In this document: positions 18,986-59,366 of the stretch, in pieces
Layout: every line of letters begins with the position of its first letter
Numbering within the stretch: the first letter of the stretch is position 1
Origin: Lama guanicoe
Taxonomy: Eukaryota
NCBI GenBank assembly: GCA_013239625.1
Contig: MU053792.1
Span: forward strand, 470,941-534,940
Direction: 5' to 3'
DNA length: 64,000 nt
Notes under the pieces: model-generated
The model's database searches: none
Told to the model about the DNA's origin: nothing
The model's input: the letters and a program-made list of their open reading frames with translations, nothing else
Made by a program: the position numbers and the translations under genes

Positions 18986-21900
18986 GATCAAAGGGCAAGA
19001 TATATTCAAAGTCCTCAATGAAAAAAAGATGCAATCTAGAATACTTTATCCAGCAAGGCTATCCTTTAGAACAGGAGAGAGAAAGAACTTCACAGACAAG
19101 CAAAAACTAAAAGAATTCAGCAATACTAAACCTGTGCTAAAAGAAATATTGAAAGATCTACTCTAAATGGAAAAGAAGTAGGATGCTACAGAAAGGAGAA
19201 AACCATAATTGGAAAGGCAATAACTACAATGAATTATAACAGAATGAACCAGAGGATGTAAAAGAGAACATTCAAATCATTAAAGCTGGGAGAGGGGAGC
19301 AAGAGAATATAGTTTTTGGGGTTTTTTTTTATTCTTTTCAGGAAGGGTTTAAGCTTATATGACTATCAGTTTAAAATAAACAGATGTAGCAATGGGTTAA
19401 TATACTTAAAAAACAGGGTAACCACAAGTCAGAAACTTACAACAGAGGCACAAAAACCAAAGAGAAACCAAGATAATACAAAAGAAAATTATCAAACCAC
19501 AAAAAGAAAAAGAAAGGAACAAAGAGGTAATCCCAAATGAAATGGAAAACTAAGTACAAAAGTGGCAATAAACACACACCTATCAATAATTACTGTAAAT
19601 GTCAATGGACTAAATGCTCCAATCAAAAGACATAGAACAGCATATGGGATAATAAAGCAAGAACCTACAACAGGCTGCATACATAGATTGAAAGTGAAAG
19701 GGTGGAAAAAGGTATTTCCTGCAAATGAAAATGACAAGAAATCAGGAGTAGCAATAGTGATTTCAGATAAAATAGACTTTAAAACAAAGGCCATAAAGAA
19801 AGATAAAGAAGAACACTATATAATGATAAATGGAGCAATAAAAGATATGGATATTACAGTCATTAACATATATGTACCCAATACAGAAGCACCTAAACAC
19901 ATAAAGCAAATATTAATAGATATAAAGGGAGAAATTGATGGGAACACAATCATAGTAGGGAACTTAACACCCCACTAACATCATTGGACAGATCTTCCAG
20001 ACAGAAAATTAATAAGGCAACGGAGAAACTAAATAACTGTAGAAAAATTGAACATGGTTGATATGGTCAGACCATTACATCCCCCAAAATAGAATATACA
20101 TTTTTTTCAAGTGCACATAAAACATTTTCTAGCTTAGATCCTGTACTCAGGCACAAAAGAAGTCTCAACAAATTTAAGAAGATAGAAATTATTTCAAGCA
20201 TCTTTTCTAACCACAGTGCCATGAAACTAGAAATCAACCACAGAAAAGCAAAGGAGAAAAAAATGACAACATGGAGATTAAACAACATGCTACTAAAAAT
20301 TCAATGGGTCAGTGAAGAAATCAGAGAAGAAATTAAAAACTACTTTGAGACAAAGGACAATTAAAACACAACCATACAAAATCCAAGGGATGCAGCAAAA
20401 GCATCTCTAAGAGGGAAATTCTTAGTGATACAGGCCTTCCACAGAGAAGAACAACCTCAAATAAACAATCTAACATACTATCTAAAAGAATTAGATAAAG
20501 AAATACAAACAAAACCAAAAGTCAGGAGAAGGAGGGAAATAATGAAGATTAGGGAGGAAATACATAAAATAGAGATTAAAAAACAATAGAAAAAAATCAA
20601 TCAGATCAAGAGCTGGTGTTTTGAAAGAGTAAACAAAATTGACAAACCTCTGGCTAGACTCACCAAGAAGAAAAGAGAGAGAACACAAATAAAATTAGAA
20701 AGGAAAATGGAGAAATTACAACCAATATCACAGAAAGATAACATATCATAAAAGAGTACTTTGAACAACTATATGGAAACAAATTGGACAACCTGGAAGA
20801 AATGGAAAAGCTTCTGGAAACATACAGTCCACCAGGACTGAATCAAGAAGAAATTGACCACTTGAACAGACCAATCACAGGAAAGGATATAGAATTAGCA
20901 ATAAAACCCCCTCCCTACAAACAAAAGTCCAGGACCAGATGGCTTCACTCAGAAACTCTACCAAACATACAAAGAACTCATACCTGATACCAGTCCTTAT
21001 CAAATTCTTTCAAAAGATTGAAAAGGAGGGAATACTCTCAAACTCATTCTATGAAGCCACCATCACCCTGATACCAAAACCAGGCAAAGACACTACCAAA
21101 AAAGAGAATTACAGGCCAATATCACTAATGAACATAGATGCAAAAATCCTTAACAAAATATTAGCAAACAGAATCCAGCAGCACATAAAAAAGATCATAC
21201 ACCATGATCGAGTGGGGTTCATCCCAGAGAAACAAGAATGGTTCAACATATGCAAATCAATCAATGTGATACACCACATCCACAAAAGAAAGGACAAAAA
21301 CCACATGATCAGCTCAATAAATGCAGAAAAGGCATTTGATAAAATTCAACACCCACTTATGATAAAAACCCTTACCAAAGTGGGTATAGAGGGAATATAT
21401 CTCAATATAATAAAAGTTATTTATAACAAACCTACAGCCAGCATAGTACTCAATGGTGAAAAACTGAAAATCTTCCCACTAAAATCTGGGACAAGACAAG
21501 GTTGTCCACTCTCTCCACTTCTATTCAACATAGTCTTGGAAGTCCTACCCACAGCAATTGGGCAAGAAAAATAAATAAAAGTGATCCAAATTGGAAGAGA
21601 AGAGGTGAAACTGTCACTATATGCAGATGACATTATACTATATATAGAAAACCCTAAAAGCTCCACACAAAAATTACTAGAGCTAATAAAAGAATTTGGC
21701 AAGGTAGCAGGATACAAGATTAATGTAGAAAAATCAGTAGCATTTCTTTACACTAACAATGAAACAATAGGAAAAGAAAGTAAAGAAAAAATCTCTTTTA
21801 AAATTGCATGCAAAACAATAAAATACTTAGGAATAAATCTGACCAACTAGTTGAAAGACATATATGGAGAGCAACAAAACATTGATTAAGGAAATTAAAG

Positions 21901-25494: not shown

Positions 25495-26053
25495 TTTATT
25501 TATTTTAACTTTTTTTATTGAGGTATAGTCAGTTTACAATTTTGTGTCAATTTCTGGTGTACAGCACAATGCTTCAGTCATACACAAACATACATATATT
25601 CATTTTCATATTCTTTTTCACCATAAGCTACTGTAAGATATCGAATATGTTTCCCTGTGTTATACAGTATAAACTTGTTTATCTATTTTATATATACCTG
25701 TCAATACCTGCAAATCTCGAACTCCCAGTTTATCCCTTCCCACCCACCTCCCTGCTGGCAACCACAAGTCTGTATTCTGTTTGTGAGTCTGTTTCAGTTT
25801 TATATATAAGTTCATTTGTCTTTTTTTTTCAGATTCCACATATGAGTGATATCATATGATATTTTTCTTTCTCTTTCTGGCTTACTTCACTTAGAATGAC
25901 ATTCTCCAGGAACATCCATGTTGCTGCAAATGGCATTATTTTATCATTTTTTATGGATGAATAGTATTCCATTGTATAAATAGACCACAACTTCTTTATC
26001 CAGTCATCTGTCGATGGACATTTAGGTTGTTTCCATGTCTTGGCTATTTTAAA
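25495..26053 (-). mobile_element. young L1 3' end inserted into L2
   Basis: T-rich tail followed by 'ttattgaggtatagtcagtttacaat...cagattccacatatgagtgatatc...gtttccatgtcttggctatt'. Confidence 0.92.
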
Positions 26054-27320
26054 TAATTTTAAAAGTGAGTTAACTAGATCAGATTAGGTTGGTTGGTTGG
26101 TTGGTTTTTAAAGCTCACTTTAGATTCAGTAAGAGAAAGTGGATAGATTGGTACAAGACTGAATGTAGGGATCCAGATGAGATGGTAAGTCCAGATTAGA
26201 ATAGTGTTTATAAAGATAAAGAGAAGTGGAAAGATGTAAGGGGTATCTAGAAGGTATAACTGACAAGACTGCCAATTCAGTTAATATAAGGAATAAGAAA
26301 AAGAAGAAGGAATCATAATTAAAGCAAGTGCCTGCTAGTGCCATTCACTGAGAAGAGAGTGTAAGGGGAAAAAAGATCTTGGTAGTCACGTGTGAGGAGC
26401 TATCCTGTCCGTAACATATGTAGGGCCTGGTACAAAAGTAACAGCACAATGCTTCAGTCATACACAAACATACATATATTCATTTTCATATTCTTTTTCA
26501 CCATAAGCTACTGTAAGATATCGAATATGTTTCCCTGTGTTATACAGTATAAACTTGTTTATCTATTTTATATATACCTGTCAATACCTGCAAATCTCGA
26601 ACTCCCAGTTTATCCCTTCCCACCCACCTCCCTGCTGGCAACCACAAGTCTGTATTCTGTTTGTGAGTCTGTTTCAGTTTTATATATAAGTTCATTTGTC
26701 TTTTTTTTTCAGATTCCACATATGAGTGATATCATATGATATTTTTCTTTCTCTTTCTGGCTTACTTCACTTAGAATGACATTCTCCAGGAACATCCATG
26801 TTGCTGCAAATGGCATTATTTTATCATTTTTTATGGATGAATAGTATTCCATTGTATAAATAGACCACAACTTCTTTATCCAGTCATCTGTCGATGGACA
26901 TTTAGGTTGTTTCCATGTCTTGGCTATTTTAAATAATTTTAAAAGTGAGTTAACTAGATCAGATTAGGTTGGTTGGTTGGTTGGTTTTTAAAGCTCACTT
27001 TAGATTCAGTAAGAGAAAGTGGATAGATTGGTACAAGACTGAATGTAGGGATCCAGATGAGATGGTAAGTCCAGATTAGAATAGTGTTTATAAAGATAAA
27101 GAGAAGTGGAAAGATGTAAGGGGTATCTAGAAGGTATAACTGACAAGACTGCCAATTCAGTTAATATAAGGAATAAGAAAAAGAAGAAGGAATCATAATT
27201 AAAGCAAGTGCCTGCTAGTGCCATTCACTGAGAAGAGAGTGTAAGGGGAAAAAAGATCTTGGTAGTCACGTGTGAGGAGCTATCCTGTCCGTAACATATG
27301 TAGGGCCTGGTACAAAAGTA
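25561..27320. repeat. tandem duplication, 2 x 880 bp (25561-26440, 26441-27320)
   Basis: Copies look identical by eye. The ORF track gives identical peptides offset by 880 (26126/27006; shared stop at 25859/26739). Confidence 0.97.
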
Positions 27321-28110: not shown

Positions 28111-28146
28111 ACCTCCCAAACTGGGTGAATTCCCTGTGTCACATGT

Positions 28147-28297
28147 GCTTTAATTTATTTATTTGTTTATTGATTGTGTTTATTTGTTTTGGAAGGAGGT
28201 AATTAGGTTTATTTATTTATTTTAATGGAGGCACTGGGGACTGAACCCAGCACCTTGAGCATGCTAGGCACACACTCTACCACTAAGCTATCCCCTA
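28147..28297 (-). mobile_element. tRNA-derived SINE, camelid Vic-1-like
   Basis: The minus strand has an A box (TAGCTTAGTGG), a B box (GGTTCAGTCC) and an (AAAT)n tail with 'cctaattacctcc'. A 16 bp TSD TCCCTGTGTCACATGT lies at 28131-28146 and 28298-28313. Confidence 0.9.
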
Positions 28298-28724
28298 TCC
28301 CTGTGTCACATGTTTATATAGTTCCACTATATTCCTACAGTTGTTTGCTGAGCTTGTGTCTTTTATTCCACTCTCTTAGATGTGTGAGAATAACTGTACG
28401 TGTCATGTTCAGTGTCATGAGCCAAATACCCAACATTCTGTCTGTAGAGATTATAGGCATTAAGCTGCCAAAAAATGTTTGTATTTCTTTTGAGACATTC
28501 TGCTGAAATCTGTTATCATTTATATAAAATGAGTCAAATCAAATAGTCATTTTAAAGTGACAAAGTTTTTGAGCTCAGAAACCACATGTCTGTTATTCCT
28601 TGCTTATTCAGTACTTAACATGCTTGGCACACTGTAGACGTGCAAGAAGTCAAGGTTAAGTGACAGTGCTCAATACATTAGACGACTTAGAATGTTAAAA
28701 GGATAAATATGCATTGCAGATCTA

Positions 28725-31894: not shown

Positions 31895-34800
31895 GGAATT
31901 AATAGGAGAAGAGTATGTGGAGTTCACTGCTCTTTACAAACTCACAAACACATCAAAAATACATCTACATGTGGAAAAATTCTCATGGAAAATTAACCGG
32001 AAATTGGCTGAACTCCTATATAACCAAGACAGCAAATAAGACTCCCATCTTATTTGGGAAAAAGCATCAGGCTGGGACTCTCCTATGCCCCTGGGAGAAC
32101 ACTGAAAAGAAAAGGAAGACCACAAGGTCAAAGTAAGTGGGTCAAAATACAGACTGAGCATCCCTAGTCCTCGGCTACTGTGCAGAGGAGACAAACCCTG
32201 GTGGTTGCTTGGAGAACCACGGGGACAGATAGAAAGCTGGAGAAGGAGAAACCTGGACTCCACTTGCAAGGAGTGCATGGGTGCTGGCTTGACATCAGGC
32301 AGGGCAGAGAAAGCCCTGCCCTAGCGGCTGATGCCTCACCACACTCCCCAGTCAAAGCTGAGCAAATACGGAAGCCCCACTCTCTCCATGCCACAGCTTG
32401 GCACTGGAACTAGAAAGGCCAGTTTTTGAGAAAATATTCAGTTTAGAAATGCAGAGGCAGCCCCAGGGGCCTGGGGCACGGTCCAGGTGAGGCAGTGGTA
32501 GCCATTATTGGTGATTACTCAAACAGCATCCCAGAAGAAGCCCAGACTTCTGAGGACAGTGCAGCTGCCTTAAATCCTATGACCACAAGGCCCTGACCCC
32601 CAGTCCTAGCCAAGAGAATGCTCTAGCCTCATCCACTCCATGCCACAACATTGCTCTATGGCCGGGATGACCACAACAGTGGAAAACGTGCAAACTGGAG
32701 CTGCATCTGAGAGGGGCCACAGACAACTACACAAGCAGTGCATCAGATCTCTGTAAGCACATGAACTTCACTTGCTTCAGCACTCCTCTCCATTAGGGCA
32801 AAGTTTCCAGGATGGGGAGAAGGAAGAGCACACACTTAAAGGTAACAGAGTGAGCTTGAGCCCATACCTCTGGGCTTCTTCCCCAGGGACACAGGAGCAG
32901 ACCTCACTCATGACAGGATGGAGATTACCACTGAGCAGAAAGTAAACCCTGCTTCACACTCTGCACAGGCTCTCCAACACCAGCCACACTCTCTGTCAAG
33001 GTGTTAGTGGCTAGCACACCCTGAAGAAAGATGTTTCTGGCATCTACAACAAATCCAGCCCTCACATCAAAGACCTTGAGCAAATGCAGTCTACCGAAGA
33101 ATTTTCCATGTAAAAACACCTCTTCAAGACCATAATAGATAACTCTTTCACCTAAATTCATAGAGACAGAGAAAGTTAAGTAAAATTTAAAAAATCAGAG
33201 GAGTCACTCTCAACTGAAGGAACAGGAGAAAAACCCTGAAAAGATAAATGATGAAACAGAGATAATCAGTCTATCAGAGGCTGAGTTTAAAAACTTGGTA
33301 ATAGAAAGGCTAACTGAATTAAAAGAGAGAATTGATCTAAACACAGATCATTTAAATAAGGAACTCGAAACTATAAAGAAGACCCATTCAATAACAGACG
33401 ATTCAATCTCTGAGATTAAAAAAAAAACACTCCAGAAGGAATAAATAGTCAACTAAATAATACAGAAGAATTCACAAGTGATCTGCAAGACGGAATAATA
33501 AGAATCACCTAATTAGAACAGCAGACAAAAAGACAAATAAAAAATGAAAGCAACATAGGCGATCTATAGGGTAACTTAAAACATGCCAATATGTGCATTA
33601 TAGGGATTCCAGAAAAAAGAAGAGAGAGAGAAGGGGATTAAAAATGTGTTTGAAAAAAATTATGACTGAATACTTCCCAAACCTAATGAAGGAAACAGAT
33701 ATCCAGGTGCAGAAGGCACAGAGGGTCCTAAAGAAGTCCCCTAGACAGTCTCACCAAGAAGAAAAGAGACAGTGCCCAAATAAACAAAGTAAGAAGTGAA
33801 AGAGGTGACATAACAACCAATGCCACAGAGAGCACTATGAGTAGTTATAAGACAACAATTTGGACAACTTAGAAGAAATGGATACACTTCTAGAAGAACA
33901 CAGCCTGCCAAGACTGAGTCAAGAAGAAACAGGCAATCTGAACAATCAATCATTAAAAGTGAAATAGCATCTTTAAAAAAAGAAAAAAAAAAAGCCTCCC
34001 AGCAAACAAATGTCCAGGATTGGACTGGATGGCTTCCCAGGGGATTGCTACCAAACACAAAGAAAAAGTTAGATCTATCTTTCTGAAACTATTCCAAAAA
34101 ATTAAAGAGGAGGTAACACTCCCAAATTCTTCCTTTGGGGTCACTAATACCCTGATACCAAGAACAGACAAAGACACTGAAAAAAAAAAAAGAAAGAAAG
34201 AAAATTACAAGTCTGTATCTTTGATAAGTATATATGCAAAAATTCTCAACACAATATTAGCAAACTGCATCCAACATTATATAAAAAGGATCATACACTA
34301 TAATCAAGTTGGATTTGTTCCATTGTCATAAGGATGGATCAATACATGCAAATTAAACAATGAGATACACTACATTAACAAAAAGAAGGAAAAAACACAT
34401 GATAATCTCAATCTATGCAGAAAAAGCATTTGACAAATTTCAAAATTCATTCATGAATAAAACACTCATCAAAGTGTGTATAGAAGGAACATACATCAAA
34501 TAATGAAGGCCATTTACAATAAACCCACAGCCAACAAAATACTGAACAATGAAAGCCTTTCTGCTAAATTCAGGAAAAAGACAAGGTTGCCCATTCTCAT
34601 TGCGTGTACTTAACATAGCACTGGAAGTCCTAGTCACAACAATCAGACAAGAAAAAGAAATAAATTGTATTCAAATTGGAAAGGAAGAAGTAAAAGTGTC
34701 ACCATTTGCAGGTGACATGTTAGCTTATATAGGAGCCACTGAAGTCTCCACTCAAAAACTATTAGAACTAATACAAAAATTCAGCAAGGTAGCAAGATAT

Positions 34801-45689: not shown

Positions 45690-46366
45690 CTCATTATTTT
45701 TCAAAAGTCTTTGCAAAATGGAAATAAAAGAAAATTTTCTTATTCCCTTAAAAGGAACCTACAGCAAAATACCTACAGCAATTGTTATACTTTCAATGAT
45801 GAAATATTGAAAGTTTTCAATCACACATCAAAAAATGGTCAAGATCCAATAACATTGTTTTCACCTATTTTTGTACTGGAAATCCTAGCCAGTGAAGTAA
45901 GTGGAAAGAAATGCAAAGAGATGTAAGTATAAGAAAAGAAGAAATAAAATCATCAATATTCACAATTTTATTATAAACACAGAAAATCCAAAATAATACA
46001 AATAAATAAGTACACTTAGAAAGTTTATTGCAAACAAGGACAATTTTAAATGTTAATTATACTTTTTCTATAGCAGCTACTTATATTTTAAATATATTTT
46101 AAAATATTAACAACTATAATACTGAAAACATCAAATATCTAAGAAGTATAATAGAAGAAAACCCAACAAACAGTAAATCATAACATATTAAAAAAATCCA
46201 TGAACTGCCTCTAGTCTATCATGTTTATTGATTGGAATAAGCAAAATTATAAAAAATATTCTCTTAAATGTATCTCAATTCAGTGCAGTCAAGGTCAGAA
46301 TCTTAAGCAACTTGTGTAAATGGTAGATGCGAAAATTGACAAGACAATTTAAAAATTTATTTGAAA
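45690..46366 (+). mobile_element. ancient L1 ORF2 remnant (resumes at 51225-51720 after a nested insertion)
   Basis: 'VLEILAS' remnant. 'aaattgacaag..aatttaaaaatttatttgaaa' continues as 'ggaaaatataaggttcaagaatagtcaaaa...gcatggtattagtgcaag'. Confidence 0.75.
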
Positions 46367-49300
46367 GAAAGGAGTGGCCAACATGGCAGAGTAGGAAGGC
46401 CCTGAGTGCCTCTCCTCCTACAGGCACATCAACATTCACAAAGCAGCTATCAAGAACGTCCTGAAGCCTAGCAGAAAGAACTTCCAACTAAAAATGTAAA
46501 GAAGGAACCACAGTGAGACAGGTAGGAGTGGTCGAGACATGATATAGCCAAGACCTATAGATCCAGGTTAGTGACTCACAAATGGGAGGATAATTACAAT
46601 AACAGAGGTTCATCACAAGGAGCAAAGGGCTCAAGCCCCACATTGGGTTCCCTAGTCTGGGGCTCCTGCAGCAAAAGGACAAAGCCCCAGAATGTTTAGC
46701 TTTGTAGATCGATTGTGCTTATTTTCAGAAGAGTGAGAGGGCTGTAGAAAATAGAGACTTCAATCTTAAGAAGGGTATGCAGAATCTCACAGCCCAAGGA
46801 CAAAGGCAGAAGCACTAATTTTAAAGGACCCTGGGTCAGATCCACTTGCTGATCTTGGAGATGCCCCTAGAGAGGCAGAAGGCCACCAGGACTCACTCTG
46901 AGGATATAGATGCTGGCAGCAGCCTTTTGGGGGAGCTTATTCTACCATGAGCACACTGATGCTAGCAAGCAGCATTTTGGAATCCTCTCTCAGTTCCACC
47001 CACCAAACAGGCACCACCAGTTCTGCGACACTGTGGGCCAGGCAGCTAACTGGGCAGGGACACAGTCTGAGCTCTCAGCAGGCAGGCTGCAGTAGGACCC
47101 CCAGAGGCCCCAGTCTGTCCCAGGAACATGCCTCACCCACTAAATCTGGGACTCCCAGAGCCCATAGCCAGAGACCTTAGGATCCAGCTCTACCCACCTA
47201 AGGACCAGTGCTAGCACCAGAAAACACTGGGCCCCAGATCAGCCCACCAATGTGCTGACACCAACTCCAGGGAACACCAGATCCCATAGTCACAGATCCT
47301 AGGACTCTACTTCACCTACCAGTGAGTGGGCACAGCCCAAGGAACCCCTGGGACCTAGCCCTCCCCACCAGTGGGCCAACACCAACTCTCAAATCCCCGG
47401 GCCCTTACAAACAAAGGCCTGGTGTCTGGATCCACTCACCACACACCAGCTCTAAGGTTCCCAGGGCCCACAGATAAAGACCCCAGGACTTGTCTCTACA
47501 AACCAGTGGTAAGGCACCAGCCCTGCGATGACCTGGGCCCTGTTTCCACCTGTGATAAGGGCAACACCAGCTCTGGGACCATCGAGCCCCTCAACCAGCT
47601 GCCCCAGGAGCAGGCCTAAACCACACGTGTGCAGAAATCAGCTCTGGGAGACAGCAGACTCCACAGACAGCCCTGACAGGAACCAGCCCAGCCCACTTTC
47701 AGGCCATCACCAGCCCCGCCTCAGGATGCAACAGGCCGTAGTTTTTCCCACAGTCAGGAGAACACTGACTCTGAGACCCCCAGCACCACAGCCAGCCTCC
47801 CCAGGACTCGGCTCAGCTAGCCTGCGGGCCAACATGACAGCCCCATGACACCACGGGGCTCCACAGCCAACCACCTCATGTGCAGTCCTGCCCCCCAGCA
47901 GGACTACACCACCCGGGCTGCAGCCAGCCTTGTCAGGACCTGGCCTTGCCCACCAGCCGCCAGCAAGCTCTGCACTAGAAAGGGCCTGGCAACCTGTTCT
48001 TTCTTATGAAAGAAAAAATTCTCACTTGTAAAGGTAAATACACAGTAAAGGTAGTAGATCAACTATTCATAAAGCTAGAAGGAAGGTTATAAAGGAGTAA
48101 CATCATCTCTATCCACAGTCAGTAGTTCAGGGATATATAAAACAAGATGATGTAAAATATAACATCAAAAACATTAAACATGTAGAGGGTAATATGCAAG
48201 ATTGTTACAATGCATTCGAGCTTAAGAGATCAGCAACTTAAAATAACCATATATGTCTATACATATAACTATATATAAGCCTCATCGTAAACACAAACCA
48301 AAAATCTATAATAGATACACACACAAAACAAAGAAAAGAATCCAAACCTAACACTAGGCATTGTCATCAAATCACAAGGGAAATGAGCAAAAGGAGAAAG
48401 AACAGAAGAGAACTACAAAAACAACCATAAAACTGCTAACAAAATGGCAGTAAGTACATCCCTACTGATAGTTACTTCAAGTGCAAATGGAAAATGTTTA
48501 AATCAGAGGACATAGACTGCTGATTGGATGCAAAAACAAGACCAATATATATGCTGCCTACAAGAGACTCACTTCAGGTCTAAAGACACAAAGATTCTGA
48601 AAGTAAAGAGATGTAAAAAGGTATTCCACGTAAGAAATGAACAGAAAGCCAGGGTAGCAATACTTATATCAGACAAAATAGACTCTAAAACCAAGACTGT
48701 AACAAGATCAATTACATAATGAGAAAGGGACCAATCCAAAAAGAAGATATAACAATTGTAAATATATATGCATGGAACATAGGAACAGTTAGATAAAAAA
48801 AGAAATATTAAAAGGCATAAAGGGACAAATGGACAGTCGCACAGTAATAGTAAGGGGCTTTGACACAACACTTGCATCAATGGATGGGCCACTCAGAGGG
48901 AGAATCAATGAGAAAACATTGACCTTAAATAACTCATTAAACCAAATGGACTTACTAGATATTTACAGAACACTTTATCCAAAAGCTATGCAATACACAT
49001 TTTTTCAAGTGCACATGGAACATTCTCCAGGATCAATCACATGCTAGTTCAAAAAACAAGTCTGTAAATTTAAGAAGATTGAAATCATATATTTCCAAAC
49101 ACAACGCTGTGAGAACAGAAATCAACAAAGAAAAATCTAAACCAAAAAAAAAAAATTTGTGTTTTAAACAACATGCTACCAAGTAACCAATGTATCACTG
49201 AAAACATCAAAGTAGAAATCAAAAAATAACTGAAGATAATTAAAAAAAGACACCACAAGATCCAAAATCTATAGAATGTACTAAAGGCAGTTCTAATAGG

Positions 49301-54685: not shown

Positions 54686-55636
54686 TATTCCAATTTAGAG
54701 AGTTGGAGAATGCAACATGGTGGTCAAAGGACTCAGTAGAGAAAATACATCAGGGTTCACATCTATCTCCTTTTTTTCCACACTGCTCTTTTGTGTGTAG
54801 CTTCCCTTCCCTGGAACTTTAGGGAAATGCTATGAGGTGGAACTAATATGAAAAGGAAAACATATTTACTAAAATAAACTAGCTCTACTAGGGCAGAAAT
54901 GTCCTAAAATTGGGTTTTAGATATATCTATGTGTGTTTTTAAATTATGTATTGATCAATTTTTTAAGTGTTATTTACTTTTTAAGTGATGTTTACAAAAC
55001 TGCTAACCAAATAAATGATTTCCTATGAGGCAAATTTGCCAACAAATTAGGTAAGCTAATTATTGCGTTTAAATATTATGACTAATGCTGCACCAGAGGG
55101 TTTTTTTTTTCTGAACCTAAAAAGATTGCTGTAAGAAAGTTTGTCGTTAATAAAAATCCAAATACATTGAAAGAACAGATTTTTTACTTATATGGCTTTT
55201 TAACAAAAAAGTTATAAAGGATTCATTTAAACAGTCAATATCTAAAATGAAATAGTGACTATTCATTTAATAATCTTATAGCACATTATTTCTGGAATGC
55301 TCAGGACACAAAATGGAACACCAAGACAGAAATTACAGATGTATAAAATATAAAAATGTGTATGCATCTATTAAAAATTCTTGACCTACAAAAAGTACAT
55401 AACTCAGGAGAAAGCTGAGTCATTGATGTCTTGCATAATTAGTCTTTGGGCTACAACACCACACACAATATTGCAGGAGCAAAGTGCATAATTTCTATAT
55501 CAATCACTTACATACTCTAAAGAATATACACTTACCTTCTCTGCAGCTGTTTATTTCAAGTAATCCCTCCACTCTTTGAAGTAACACTCCCAGAGACACA
55601 CATGAGAATATTTCGCACAACATGGAAGCATTATTT

Positions 55637-56150
55637 TTTTTAATAGACTATTCTTTTACAGCAGCTTCAGGTTCACAACAGAACTGAGCAGAAAATACAG
55701 CGTTCGCACATAGCCCTCCCCACCCACACATATATACCCCCTACCCTCAACATCCCTCATCAGTGTGACGTATTTGATACAATCAATGAACCAACATGGG
55801 CACATCATTAACAACCAAAGTCCGTAGTTTACATTAGGGTTCACTCTTGATGTTGTAAGTTCTGTGGGTTTTGACAAATGCATAATGACATGTAGCCACC
55901 ACTATAGTATCATATAGAATAATTTCATTTCCCTAAAAATCCCTTGTGCTCCATCTATTCATTCCTTCCTCCTCCTCCTCAAACCCCTGGAAACCACGAT
56001 CTTTTTATTGTTTCTGTAGCTGTGCCTTTTCCAGAATGTCATTTGGTTGGAATCGTACAGTTTGTAGCCTTTTCAGACTGGCTTCTTTCATTCAGTAATA
56101 GGTCTTTTAAGTTTCTTCTATGTCTTTCATGGCTGAATAGATCATTTTTT
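55637..56150 (-). mobile_element. L1MB/MC-type 3' UTR
   Basis: 'ttttttaatagactatt...cagcttcaggttcacaacagaactgagcagaaaatacag...ttacattagggttcactcttg...ccttttcagactggcttctttca'. Confidence 0.9.
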
Positions 56151-57364
56151 ACTGTGCATATATTTTTAATTTACATATATTAATACCAGGTTGTATGTAT
56201 CTTTTTGAGTTAATTCTTATTTTGTGGTTGGCTTTATTTCTTTGACAACAATGTAAGTTTAAAAGTTAAAGCTCTAAACATTCTTAGAAGCAAGGAACAG
56301 TACATATATGTACACATATGGAAGCATTATTTGATCCTGATCTTTAAACAAATAAGCAACTACGAAAAATGTGAGAAAGCAAAGACTTGAAACTAGAGGC
56401 TTGCCTTTGAGCTACATAATCCTGGACAAGAATATAAATCTCCTGGGCCAAAATCCCCTCACCTATAGAAATGGAATAATAATAATATTTGTGTGAAATA
56501 AGGATCCAATCCTCTACCATTAACAATGCCCACTGGGTATGTCGTGCCCCCAGTTTTTAGTTACTCATAATATTATCAGTATTCAAACAGAATTCTGAGT
56601 GGCAGAAACCTCTCCATTATTTTCTTTCATGCTTAAAGTCACACACTACTCACTCGAGTGCTTTATAAATTTTCAATGCACTTAATGATAAATGTTTAGA
56701 AACCTCTTTTTAGGTTTATTACTTAATAGTGAAAAATCAAAAAGCCATATACCATTGGAAAAACACTCATTTTTTTCTGCTGCAATAAAAATGACTGAAG
56801 GAATATGCTGAGAACATAATGCCTTCTTTTCTCTGCCAAAAATGTAGGAAATGTCATCGTAAAACATTACTAAAGGTGTGAAAAACAAGCATTAGGAGAA
56901 AACTGCAGTGTGAAGTTTTGCTGTATAATTGGATTAACTCACAGGCTTTGCAGCATTTCTTTGCTTATTTTATTTACTCAACTACAACAATAAAAATGAT
57001 AAATTTTATATAATATGTTGTGCAACACAATTGAAATTAAAAATTAAGTAATGAGATATGTAGAAAAGTTTAAAATATTTAAAAATTAAATAACACACTT
57101 CTAAATAATCCACAAGTCAAAGAAATCACGAGGAAAACTGCAAATCCAATGACAATGAAAATTCGTAATTTGTGAGGTGTATCTAAAACAATGCTTAGAA
57201 GAAAGTGTATGGCTTTAAATGATTACATTAGAAAACAAGGATGATTGAAAAGTTCTCAAGTTTCACCTTGAGAATTTAGAGTAAAATAGACCATCAGAAA
57301 TGAGAAAGAGAGAAAAAAAGATATGAAATTCAGGACTTTTCAAATTAACAACAAAAAAAGAGAT

Positions 57365-57545
57365 GAGCAACAAGAATTTACAGTATAACACAGGGAACAA
57401 TATTTAATATCTTGTAATAATCTACAATGGTAAATAATCTGAACATATATATGAAACTGAATCACTTTGCTGTACACCTGAAACAAACACAATACTGTAA
57501 ATCAATTATACCTCAATAAAAATGTATTAAAATAACAAAAAAAAA
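57365..57545 (+). mobile_element. short L1 3' tip
   Basis: 'agcaacaagaatttacagtataacacagggaac...ctgaatcactttgctgtacacctgaaac...cctcaataaa'. Approximate TSD AAAAAGA(G/A)ATG. Confidence 0.85.
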
Positions 57546-57712
57546 GAAATGGAAAGAGCTATATACTATAACTTCTTCAGGCATTAGTGTGATATTATAA
57601 GAACAGTATGATCACCTTGCAACAAATTCAGCCACTGAGATTATCTAGAGACATGTCTTAACAAATACAACTTACTAAAACTGATACAAGAAGAGTTAAG
57701 TTTGAATAGCCT

Positions 57713-58531
57713 TACTCAGAAACATACTTATTTTCAAATACCAATTATTCAACATAAGATACATTAAATAACTATAACATTTAAAATCTTAATAGGGTAT
57801 ACATTAGCAAATATGTTCACAGCATCTTTCATTCAAACATCATTCCCAAGCAGCAGTGACTTATTTAAATATTAGCTCTCTCAGATTTTTTTTAAATAGC
57901 AGTACATTAAAAAACTGAACATGGCAGGTCAAAAACATGAGTATAAATGTTTTATATCTGAGATGCAATCAAAAGGCTGGGAGGAACTGCTTTCACCACA
58001 GCTATGCTTAAACCTTCAAAGTATTCCCAGTTTGCATTCTGTAACGTTAAGATACACTCAAATATTAATTTGGCAACAGTACCTGGGATGTATTTTCATT
58101 AAGAATAGATTTGTGTAGCTTAGTATAATGTCAGTATCAACCTGCCTACCCACATTTCAGCATTTTTGAAATGTATAAATTTTTTAAAATTCTTTTCTCT
58201 CTAGGAACCCCAGTTCATCCCCTATTTTATTTTCTTTCAGAAATTAGGGATTTGTTCTTAGCCGATATCTGGAGTGAGCAGCTAATTTGCCATCATTCAC
58301 TGAGAATCTAATGCTTGTGTTGTCACATTACTAATGAATATTTTTTAATGCGTCTTGTAAAGTGTGGTTTTCGATTCCATGTATCAGTCAGTATGTTTAT
58401 ATAGTAAAGGATTATTTGTCACATTATAATGTCACCCAGGAAAACATGCTTCATCTCTTAGATTTTTAACTAAAACTGGTTAAACTTCAGTATTTCACTG
58501 TCAGATTAAATCCCCTTGCCTGAAGAAAAAA
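57713..58531 (+). pseudogene. probable L1-mediated retrocopy of a cellular mRNA 3' UTR (parent unknown)
   Basis: 15 bp TSD AAGTTTGAATAGCCT at 57698-57712 and 58532-58546. ATTAAA at 58505-58510 followed by an A tail from ~58523. The insert does not resemble a repeat I know. Confidence 0.8.
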
Positions 58532-59366
58532 AAGTTTGAATAGCCTATATTTATTTAGGAAATTGATATAGTTCCTACAAAGAAAACACCTGGTCCAAAT
58601 AGTTTCCTTGGTGAAGTTTGTCAAACACTAAAGGAAAAAAATAACACCAAATTTATACAGACACTTTCAGAAAATAGAGAAGGAAACATTCTTCAACTCA
58701 TTTCACGAGGACAGTACAAACCTGAAAAGAAAAAAAGCTAACATTGGTTGGAAATAAAACTGCAAATATTCTTCATAAACATATGCACAGATATTTGCAA
58801 ATTGAATACTGAAATATATAAAAAGAATAACACAAACAGCCAAGTGGGTTTTTGCCCAGAACTTACCCAGAGTTGAAAATTCCTACTCTTTAAGAGAAAC
58901 CATTAAGAAAATGAAAAAGCAAGTGAAAGTGACAAAATATTTGCTACTATCTGAAAAAGACCTTATGTCCAGCATTTATAAAGATCTCTTACAGGTCAAC
59001 CATAGAATGATAAAAAAAAATCTAAAACAACTAAAAACAAAATATGGACAAAAGATTTGAACAGACACACAGAAGTTTGAGATCTTGATTCTCAGGAGTA
59101 TCAACTTAAGTACTTAAGATCAGTGTGAAGATGTTACATGTGCTTTGTCTTCTTGCTCCATTTCATATACAGGATCTGGATGTATAAATTGTAGAATATC
59201 AGAGAATAATTTTCTCAAAAGGCTTGATCTCTGCTGATTTAAACACTATCAGATCCAAAATCTTAGTCCTAGAATTCATACAATGAATATGCTCATATGC
59301 AGTGTGTATGTGTAAATGTATCTGTGTATATTAAAAATTTTACCGTCTTAAACAAAAATTGTGAGC

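What the first reader, a model, noticed from the sequence alone, without database searches (positions are those of the whole stretch)
57698..58546. Orphan polyadenylated insert with perfect 15 bp TSD: probable retrocopied 3' UTR, perhaps 5'-inverted
Seen: AAGTTTGAATAGCCT flanks ~820 bp of non-repeat-like sequence that ends in ATTAAA, ~13 nt, then an A tail; removing it rejoins the host ancient L1 ORF2. Known: TSD + poly(A) signal + A tail mark L1 target-primed reverse transcription of a cellular RNA or an orphan 3' transduction. Inference: composition flips from A/C-rich (57713-~58080) to T-rich (~58080-58520), suggesting a twin-priming inversion. Having no ORF, it would be invisible to gene and repeat annotation, yet it records a germline-expressed transcript and its poly(A) site.
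Basis: partly seen in the sequence, partly recalled or inferred. Interest (0 to 1): 0.72.

Follow-up and report, generated by a model that had tools for sequence, protein, structure and literature searches.

The report
Old retrocopy of a transcript's tail
This is an old reverse-transcribed copy of the last 810 bases of an unidentified cellular RNA, pasted by the L1 jumping-gene machinery into a dead L1; it is a real but ordinary genomic fossil, and the flip of its front part that was suspected is not there.

Summary
The insert is real. An exact 15-bp duplication (57698-57712, 58532-58546) brackets 819 bp that end in ATTAAA, 12 bases and a decayed A tail, and the two flanks rejoin as one old L1 ORF2. 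Public DNA contigs from two organisms show a second copy, 6.7% diverged (47 of 701 sites), that leaves the window's sequence at the left duplication edge and parts from it near the start of the A tail: the source. A relative 3% diverged carries both junctions, so the insertion is old, roughly twice that split. The proposed inversion at ~58080 is refuted: one source contig (57919-58117) and an unnamed gap-free 65-codon frame both run straight across it. Only two uncovered gaps could hide one (about 4%). This is a new member of a well-described class. Interest is low.

The parts
57592..57712 (+). Host: left part of a decayed L1 ORF2 fragment, interrupted by the insert
   Evidence: Aligns to L1 copies at 20743-20870 and 33853-33950; the first copy matches L1 ORF2p in the PDB
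57696..57701 (+). Inferred endonuclease nick site, TT|AAGT: TT/AA core kept, two departures from TT|AAAA
   Evidence: Sequence; consensus as stated in PMC2912911
57698..57712 (+). Target-site duplication, left copy (15 bp)
   Evidence: likeness to the source copy begins at about the first base after it (tables 7 and 8, read by eye)
57713..58522 (+). Body: 5'-truncated copy of the 3' end of an unidentified source locus, colinear wherever the source is covered (57720-57874, 57919-58140, 58198-58524)
   Evidence: tables 3, 7, 8; 47 differences in 701 sites
57921..58118 (+). Chance 65-codon frame shared with the related copy; not under protein constraint
   Evidence: P0005 differs at 10 and P0001 at 12 of 65 residues, each by one base, no gaps; pN 0.070-0.084, as high as the DNA divergence; no Pfam family
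58505..58510 (+). Poly(A) signal ATTAAA, also present in the source copy
   Evidence: source and insert contigs both end flush at 58521 with no listed difference after 58491
58523..58531 (+). Decayed poly(A) tail (AA, G, then six A running into the duplication)
   Evidence: source and insert part near 58525 by depth bookkeeping, allowed end points 58520-58533
58532..58546 (+). Target-site duplication, right copy
   Evidence: spanned by zero-mismatch contigs in X1 and X5; two substitutions in X15
58547..59067 (+). Host: right part of the same decayed L1 fragment

Best explanation
A 5'-truncated, non-inverted retrocopy of the last ~810 nt of a polyadenylated cellular transcript (distal 3' UTR of an mRNA, or the end of a lncRNA). 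L1 ORF2p nicked an old L1 fragment at TT|AAGT, primed on the poly(A) tail added about 12-14 nt after ATTAAA, copied ~810 nt and stopped; repair left a 15-bp duplication. It happened in the germ line or early embryo of an ancestor shared with the 3%-diverged organism of run X15, and the copy has drifted since. Shown: duplication, tail, signal, split host, second copy, left boundary, presence in a relative, colinearity over most of the length. Inferred: the right fork point, target-primed reverse transcription, the age, and that the source is a transcribed exon.
For: Hallmarks. Two contig classes in X1 and X5: identical ones at single-locus depth (X5 8.1-9.7) and diverged ones (10.2-11.3), with shared stretches at the summed depth of about 20. 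The diverged copy runs on for 400 letters of other DNA left of 57720, unlike the L1 flank, in one contig of depth 10.2 (X5 record 16). No strand-changing joint (table 5). P0005 differs at codon 63 (58107-58109), where the depth fit places a fork (shared stretch starting 58108-58110), tying it to the same source. Its cluster lies on Logan contigs of up to 4331 and 4493 bp, far longer than any source contig in the two DNA runs (at most 489 bp), as expected from a run with the source but not the copy, such as RNA; this step is inference. Single-exon processed pseudogenes outnumber orphan transductions in human long-read data, 216 against 48 (PMC12350158, passages).
Against: The source gene was not identified, and no RNA contig was laid on the insert: X19 showed nothing there, and X15 may be DNA. 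The source looks little conserved at its 3' end: at six sites in 58448-58491 it alone differs from both the window and a third variant (table 3). No contig shows the source beyond the fork, so priming on a genomic A run is not excluded. No empty site was seen in any of 4 runs; no outgroup was available. The nick site is not among the three motifs counted in PMC12016303. The left junction is covered only in X15, not in X1 or X5.
Confidence: 0.75

Rival explanations
1. Orphan 3' transduction: an active L1 read through its own weak poly(A) signal to this ATTAAA, and truncation left only the downstream DNA.
For: Same hallmarks as a retrocopy. The source seems to change at about the neutral rate near its end, and a third variant in X1 (record 6, 58365-58513, 11 other letters) could be a sibling. 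No RNA was laid on it.
Against: At least 1.2 kb of source (810 + 400 letters) shows no young L1 tail, judged only by the single-locus depth of that contig; the 400 letters could not be read. Orphans are the rarer class in human data, 48 against 292 processed pseudogenes.
Confidence: 0.17
2. Retrocopy with a twin-priming 5' inversion, the break lying in one of the two stretches where no source contig was laid (57875-57918 or 58141-58197), with a long deletion between the two parts.
For: A-to-T skew shift, z 1.8-2.7 at those gaps; 57713-57874 has C 29 against G 12. Inversions were seen in 3 of 23 processed pseudogenes (PMC12016303).
Against: 58080 itself is crossed by a source contig and by the P0001/P0005 frame. 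With an inversion, the 400 letters left of the insert should run into the start of the right part; they lie on nothing in the stretch, so the deletion would have to be some 370 bp or more, while 132 of 287 L1 inversion junctions are within 20 bp. Missing contigs are common here for other reasons: X5 lacks source cover at 57919-58108 that X1 has, and both lack the left junction.
Confidence: 0.04
3. The 3' end of an undescribed interspersed repeat or non-autonomous retroposon family.
For: A third variant in X1. No Dfam or Repbase search could be run.
Against: Laid at 80% likeness, X5 is fully explained by two copies along the insert; none elsewhere in 64 kb.
Confidence: 0.02
4. A DNA-level duplication, or an assembly error, with a chance direct repeat.
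For: Exact 15-mer pairs arise in 10% of 6-kb shuffles.
Against: Signal, tail, duplication, split L1 and source boundaries coincide; the right junction is on contigs in 3 of the 4 runs laid and the left in 1.
Confidence: 0.02

Closest known systems
5'-truncated, single-exon L1-mediated processed pseudogenes (PMC2912911, first of five parts read; PMC12350158, passages: 216 of 292 polymorphic ones are monoexonic)
   Same: About 15-bp duplication, A tail, TT/AA nick core, one source locus, truncated 5' end.
   Different: No coding remnant and no exon junction, so intron loss cannot be shown; source unnamed; old and shared between species rather than polymorphic.
Orphan 3' transductions of L1 (PMC12350158, passages: 48 events, defined as aligning outside exons)
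   Same: Unique sequence with tail and duplication and no L1 part; cannot be told apart from the insert alone.
   Different: No donor L1 seen; needs the source to lie outside exons, which was not testable.
Twin-priming 5'-inverted insertions (PMC12016303, passages and section 8; Ostertag and Kazazian 2001 seen only as a reference there)
   Same: Length and outer hallmarks are compatible.
   Different: The source is colinear across the proposed break; no strand-changing joint.
Retrocopies of non-coding transcripts used to infer the parent's 3' end (PMC7692494, abstract and outline)
   Same: The tail position records where the parent RNA ended in germ-line or embryonic cells.
   Different: Those parents are known microRNA host genes; no RNA family matched here.

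Membership tests
L1-mediated processed pseudogene | Target-site duplication of about 15 bp | tested here: met
   source likeness starts at its edge
L1-mediated processed pseudogene | 3' A tail shortly after a poly(A) signal | tested here: met
   ATTAAA, 12 bases, decayed tail
L1-mediated processed pseudogene | Tail is not templated by the source DNA | tested here: inconclusive
L1-mediated processed pseudogene | L1 endonuclease site TT/AAAA | tested here: inconclusive
   TT|AAGT: core kept, two departures
L1-mediated processed pseudogene | A source locus elsewhere, without the flanks | tested here: met
   Second copy in X1 and X5, 6.7% diverged, other DNA to the left
L1-mediated processed pseudogene | Source is an exon of a cellular transcript | tested here: inconclusive
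   No RNA contig laid on the insert; 4.3-4.5 kb unnamed contigs are only a hint
L1-mediated processed pseudogene | Loss of introns | not testable with these tools
   No exon junction recognisable; source structure unknown
L1-mediated processed pseudogene | Empty site in an outgroup | not testable with these tools
   No mammalian genomes held; the rejoined host L1 is a proxy
Orphan 3' transduction | Source lies downstream of a donor L1, outside exons | tested here: inconclusive
   400 upstream letters at single-locus depth, of which only 30 were shown
Twin-priming 5' inversion | Left part lies opposite to the right part relative to the source | tested here: not met
   Not met at 58080 or anywhere the source is covered; 57875-57918 and 58141-58197 remain untested
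Interspersed repeat family | Many genomic copies | tested here: not met
   Two copies in X5, two or three in X1, at 80% likeness; filtered contigs could hide more

The most novel reading that the evidence does not exclude
The source is no annotated mRNA but an unannotated, weakly conserved germ-line transcript of 4 kb or more (a lncRNA or L1 read-through unit) that was retroposed at least twice with the same 3' end: this copy and the third variant in X1. The copies would then be the only record of a poly(A) site used in the ancestor, and such ORF-less copies nested in old L1s could be mined as a fossil map of germ-line RNA ends.
Probability: 0.2. Interest if true: 0.35.

Novelty: new member of a known kind. 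Interest (0 to 1): 0.17.

Why it matters
Little by itself: mammalian genomes hold thousands of such copies (over 12,000 putative human retrocopies in PMC2584115, abstract passage). Its uses are modest. It is a presence/absence marker for a clade, it fixes the poly(A) site of one ancestral germ-line RNA, and it is a near-identical paralogue that breaks short-read assembly of the source. It also shows that a composition shift and a perfect duplication are weak guides to inversion and to youth.

Tried and rejected
Own-genome search: no genome is held. Five RNA runs (X16-X20) hold 0.06-0.07 of the sampled words, close to the 0.060 expected of a run with the source only (49 of 819 words). Only X19 of the five was laid and it put nothing on the insert, though its L1 loose ends match those of X1 and X5; this is a lead, not evidence. 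X15 is labelled RNA by guess and covers the L1 flanks, so it was used as DNA. Metagenome scan with a 19-letter motif at the poly(A) signal: 3 of 3 hits were chance. P0005 against viral contigs gave 1 weak 22-residue hit among 31 candidate stretches (E 3e-4 among candidates only; not followed up, taken as chance) and none among 184 in prokaryote genomes. Terminal coding exon after the acceptor-like tract at 58223-58240: the 60-codon frame 58129-58308 found no relative among longer or similar-length proteins, a weak negative. The Pfam hint of an integrin beta tail (E 0.12, below cut-off) vanished in P0001 and P0005. P0002-P0004 are repetitive proteins and were dropped as chance. Micropeptide reading of 57921-58118 rejected: 10 residue changes against 11 base differences in the overlapping X1 source contig fits neutral drift (P 0.29). 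No tRNA gene in the window. Earlier findings: none near the place or by sequence. PMC3663115 and PMC8605555 (passages) added nothing used here. No paper on this locus appeared in four searches (listings only), which cannot show absence from print; no supplements were opened, and retrocopy catalogues there could list it.

Full report
Observation. The 15-mer lies at 57698-57712 and 58532-58546, exact and unique in the window at up to two mismatches. Such pairs alone are not rare (50 of 500 shuffles of a 6-kb region), but a pair with six A right before the second copy arose in 0 of 500. The 819 bases between end in ATTAAA (58505-58510), 12 bases, AA, G and an A run. With the insert and one copy taken out, the flanks align across the junction to two of three other L1 stretches tried (131 against a shuffle maximum of 65; 125 against 68; the third 62 against 72), with 6-7 nt gaps beside the junction. 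One of those copies is L1 ORF2p (E 1.4e-98). The insert has no relative in the window and no Rfam match.

Second copy. No genome is held for this window, so I used public runs. Of 24 runs listed, 14 hold 0.81-0.91 of the insert's sampled words (13 guessed DNA, one of unknown kind; four organism labels, six studies). I laid four at 80% likeness: X1, X5, X15 and X19. X1 and X5 each give contigs identical to the window (one difference in X1) and contigs that differ by several per cent at 57720-57874, 57919-58117 and 58233-58521. In X5 the listed pieces plus two short unlisted stretches at about double depth account for the whole depth profile of the insert, which means two copies. Pooled over non-overlapping pieces of both runs, leaving out the uncovered gaps and indels, the two differ at 47 of 701 sites (6.7%, 95% interval 5.0-8.8%). 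The second copy lacks the L1 context: left of 57720 it runs on for 400 letters that lie on nothing in the stretch, and by eye the likeness begins at about 57713, the first base after the duplication. On the right the copies share the signal and part near 58525 (fits allow 58520-58533); this is inferred from contig ends and depth, not read. The window's copy is therefore the derived one.

Age. X15, 3.1% diverged from the window (23 of 737 sites), has contigs across both junctions (57640-57868 and 58297-58632), with two changes in the right duplication copy. The corrected ratio of source-to-copy over X15-to-window divergence is 2.2, so the insertion is about twice as old as that split if rates are equal. 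If X15 were the other camelid tribe (split about 16-17 million years ago, recalled), the event would be some 35 million years old. Two 15-mers stay identical at 6-8% divergence with probability 0.3-0.4, so the perfect duplication fits.

Inversion. The skew shift peaks at 58089 with z 3.0, reached by 44 of 1000 shuffles but by 36% of 152 other tiles of the window. The direct test goes against it. X1 record 2, a source-type contig with 11 differences, runs unbroken from 57919 to 58117, with 161 and 37 letters on the two sides of 58080, and no joint of any kind was listed in the four runs. A search of 1.84 billion proteins with the frame 57900-58115 gave 4 hits; the best, P0001, and its cluster mate P0005 start at the same ATG (57921), have the same 65-codon length and align without gaps. 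Two stretches lack source cover, 57875-57918 and 58141-58197. A break there would need a deletion of some 370 bp or more, whereas 132 of 287 L1 inversion junctions lie within 20 bp (PMC12016303, section 8). The tool drops some contigs unseen, and demonstrably did so here. I put a hidden inversion at about 4%.

What the source is. Unnamed. P0001 and P0005 carry no name and come from Logan contigs of up to 4331 and 4493 bp. They are mechanical frames: all changes need one base each and pN equals the DNA divergence. Contigs that long are unlikely in a run holding both copies, where the source breaks into pieces under 500 bp, so they may be RNA; that is inference. Against a strongly conserved UTR, the source has six private substitutions in 58448-58491 when compared with the window and with a third variant, X1 record 6 (58365-58513, depth 9.3, 11 differences, absent from X5's profile), which I cannot place; it may be another short copy of the same end (27 rows of that table were not shown). 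No RNA contig was laid on the insert. Searches for a terminal coding exon and for the source in other collections found nothing.

Mechanism. Most likely (0.75), L1 ORF2p primed on the poly(A) tail of a cellular transcript at a TT|AAGT nick in an old L1 and stopped after about 810 nt, by the route described in PMC2912911 (first of five parts read). An orphan 3' transduction (0.17) gives the same anatomy and can be told apart only at the source locus. In human long-read data 216 of 292 processed pseudogenes are single-exon and 48 orphans were counted (PMC12350158, passages), so both classes are well known. Protein-based screens miss UTR parts, but mRNA-to-genome alignment finds them (PMC2584115, passages).

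Verdict. Real feature, retroposition correctly read, inversion not supported, source open. New member of a known kind; interest 0.17.

Noticed in passing
window 25561-26440 and 26441-27320: Two head-to-tail 880-bp copies, 100% identical, inside old L1-derived sequence. An assembly artefact or a very recent tandem duplication.
   Followed up: partly
run X1, record 6, laid on window 58365-58513: A third variant of the insert's 3' part: 11 differences and a 3-base gap against the window, agreeing with the window at six sites where the source differs; depth 9.3; not in X5's depth profile. Unexplained; possibly a second retrocopy of the same end.
   Followed up: partly
window 55622-56332: Another exact 15-bp direct repeat, with a T run right after the left copy: a 681-bp insertion on the minus strand, partly like other repeat pieces in the window.
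   Followed up: partly
window 57297-57555: An A-tailed repeat end, 63-71% like several others in the window and probably an L1 3' end, nested in the same host L1 about 150 bp before the insert.
   Followed up: partly
window 28131-28313: Exact 16-bp direct repeat around a 151-bp minus-strand element that looks like a tRNA-derived SINE; family not tested.
   Followed up: no
window 46121-49211: Exact 15-bp direct repeat 3076 bp apart in L1-rich sequence, possibly bounding a nested L1 piece.
   Followed up: no
window 58190-58204 and 58223-58240: Two pyrimidine tracts ending in AG that resemble splice acceptors. Four source differences after the second (58263, 58266, 58269, 58296) fall on silent third positions of one frame, but no protein relative was found.
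   Followed up: partly
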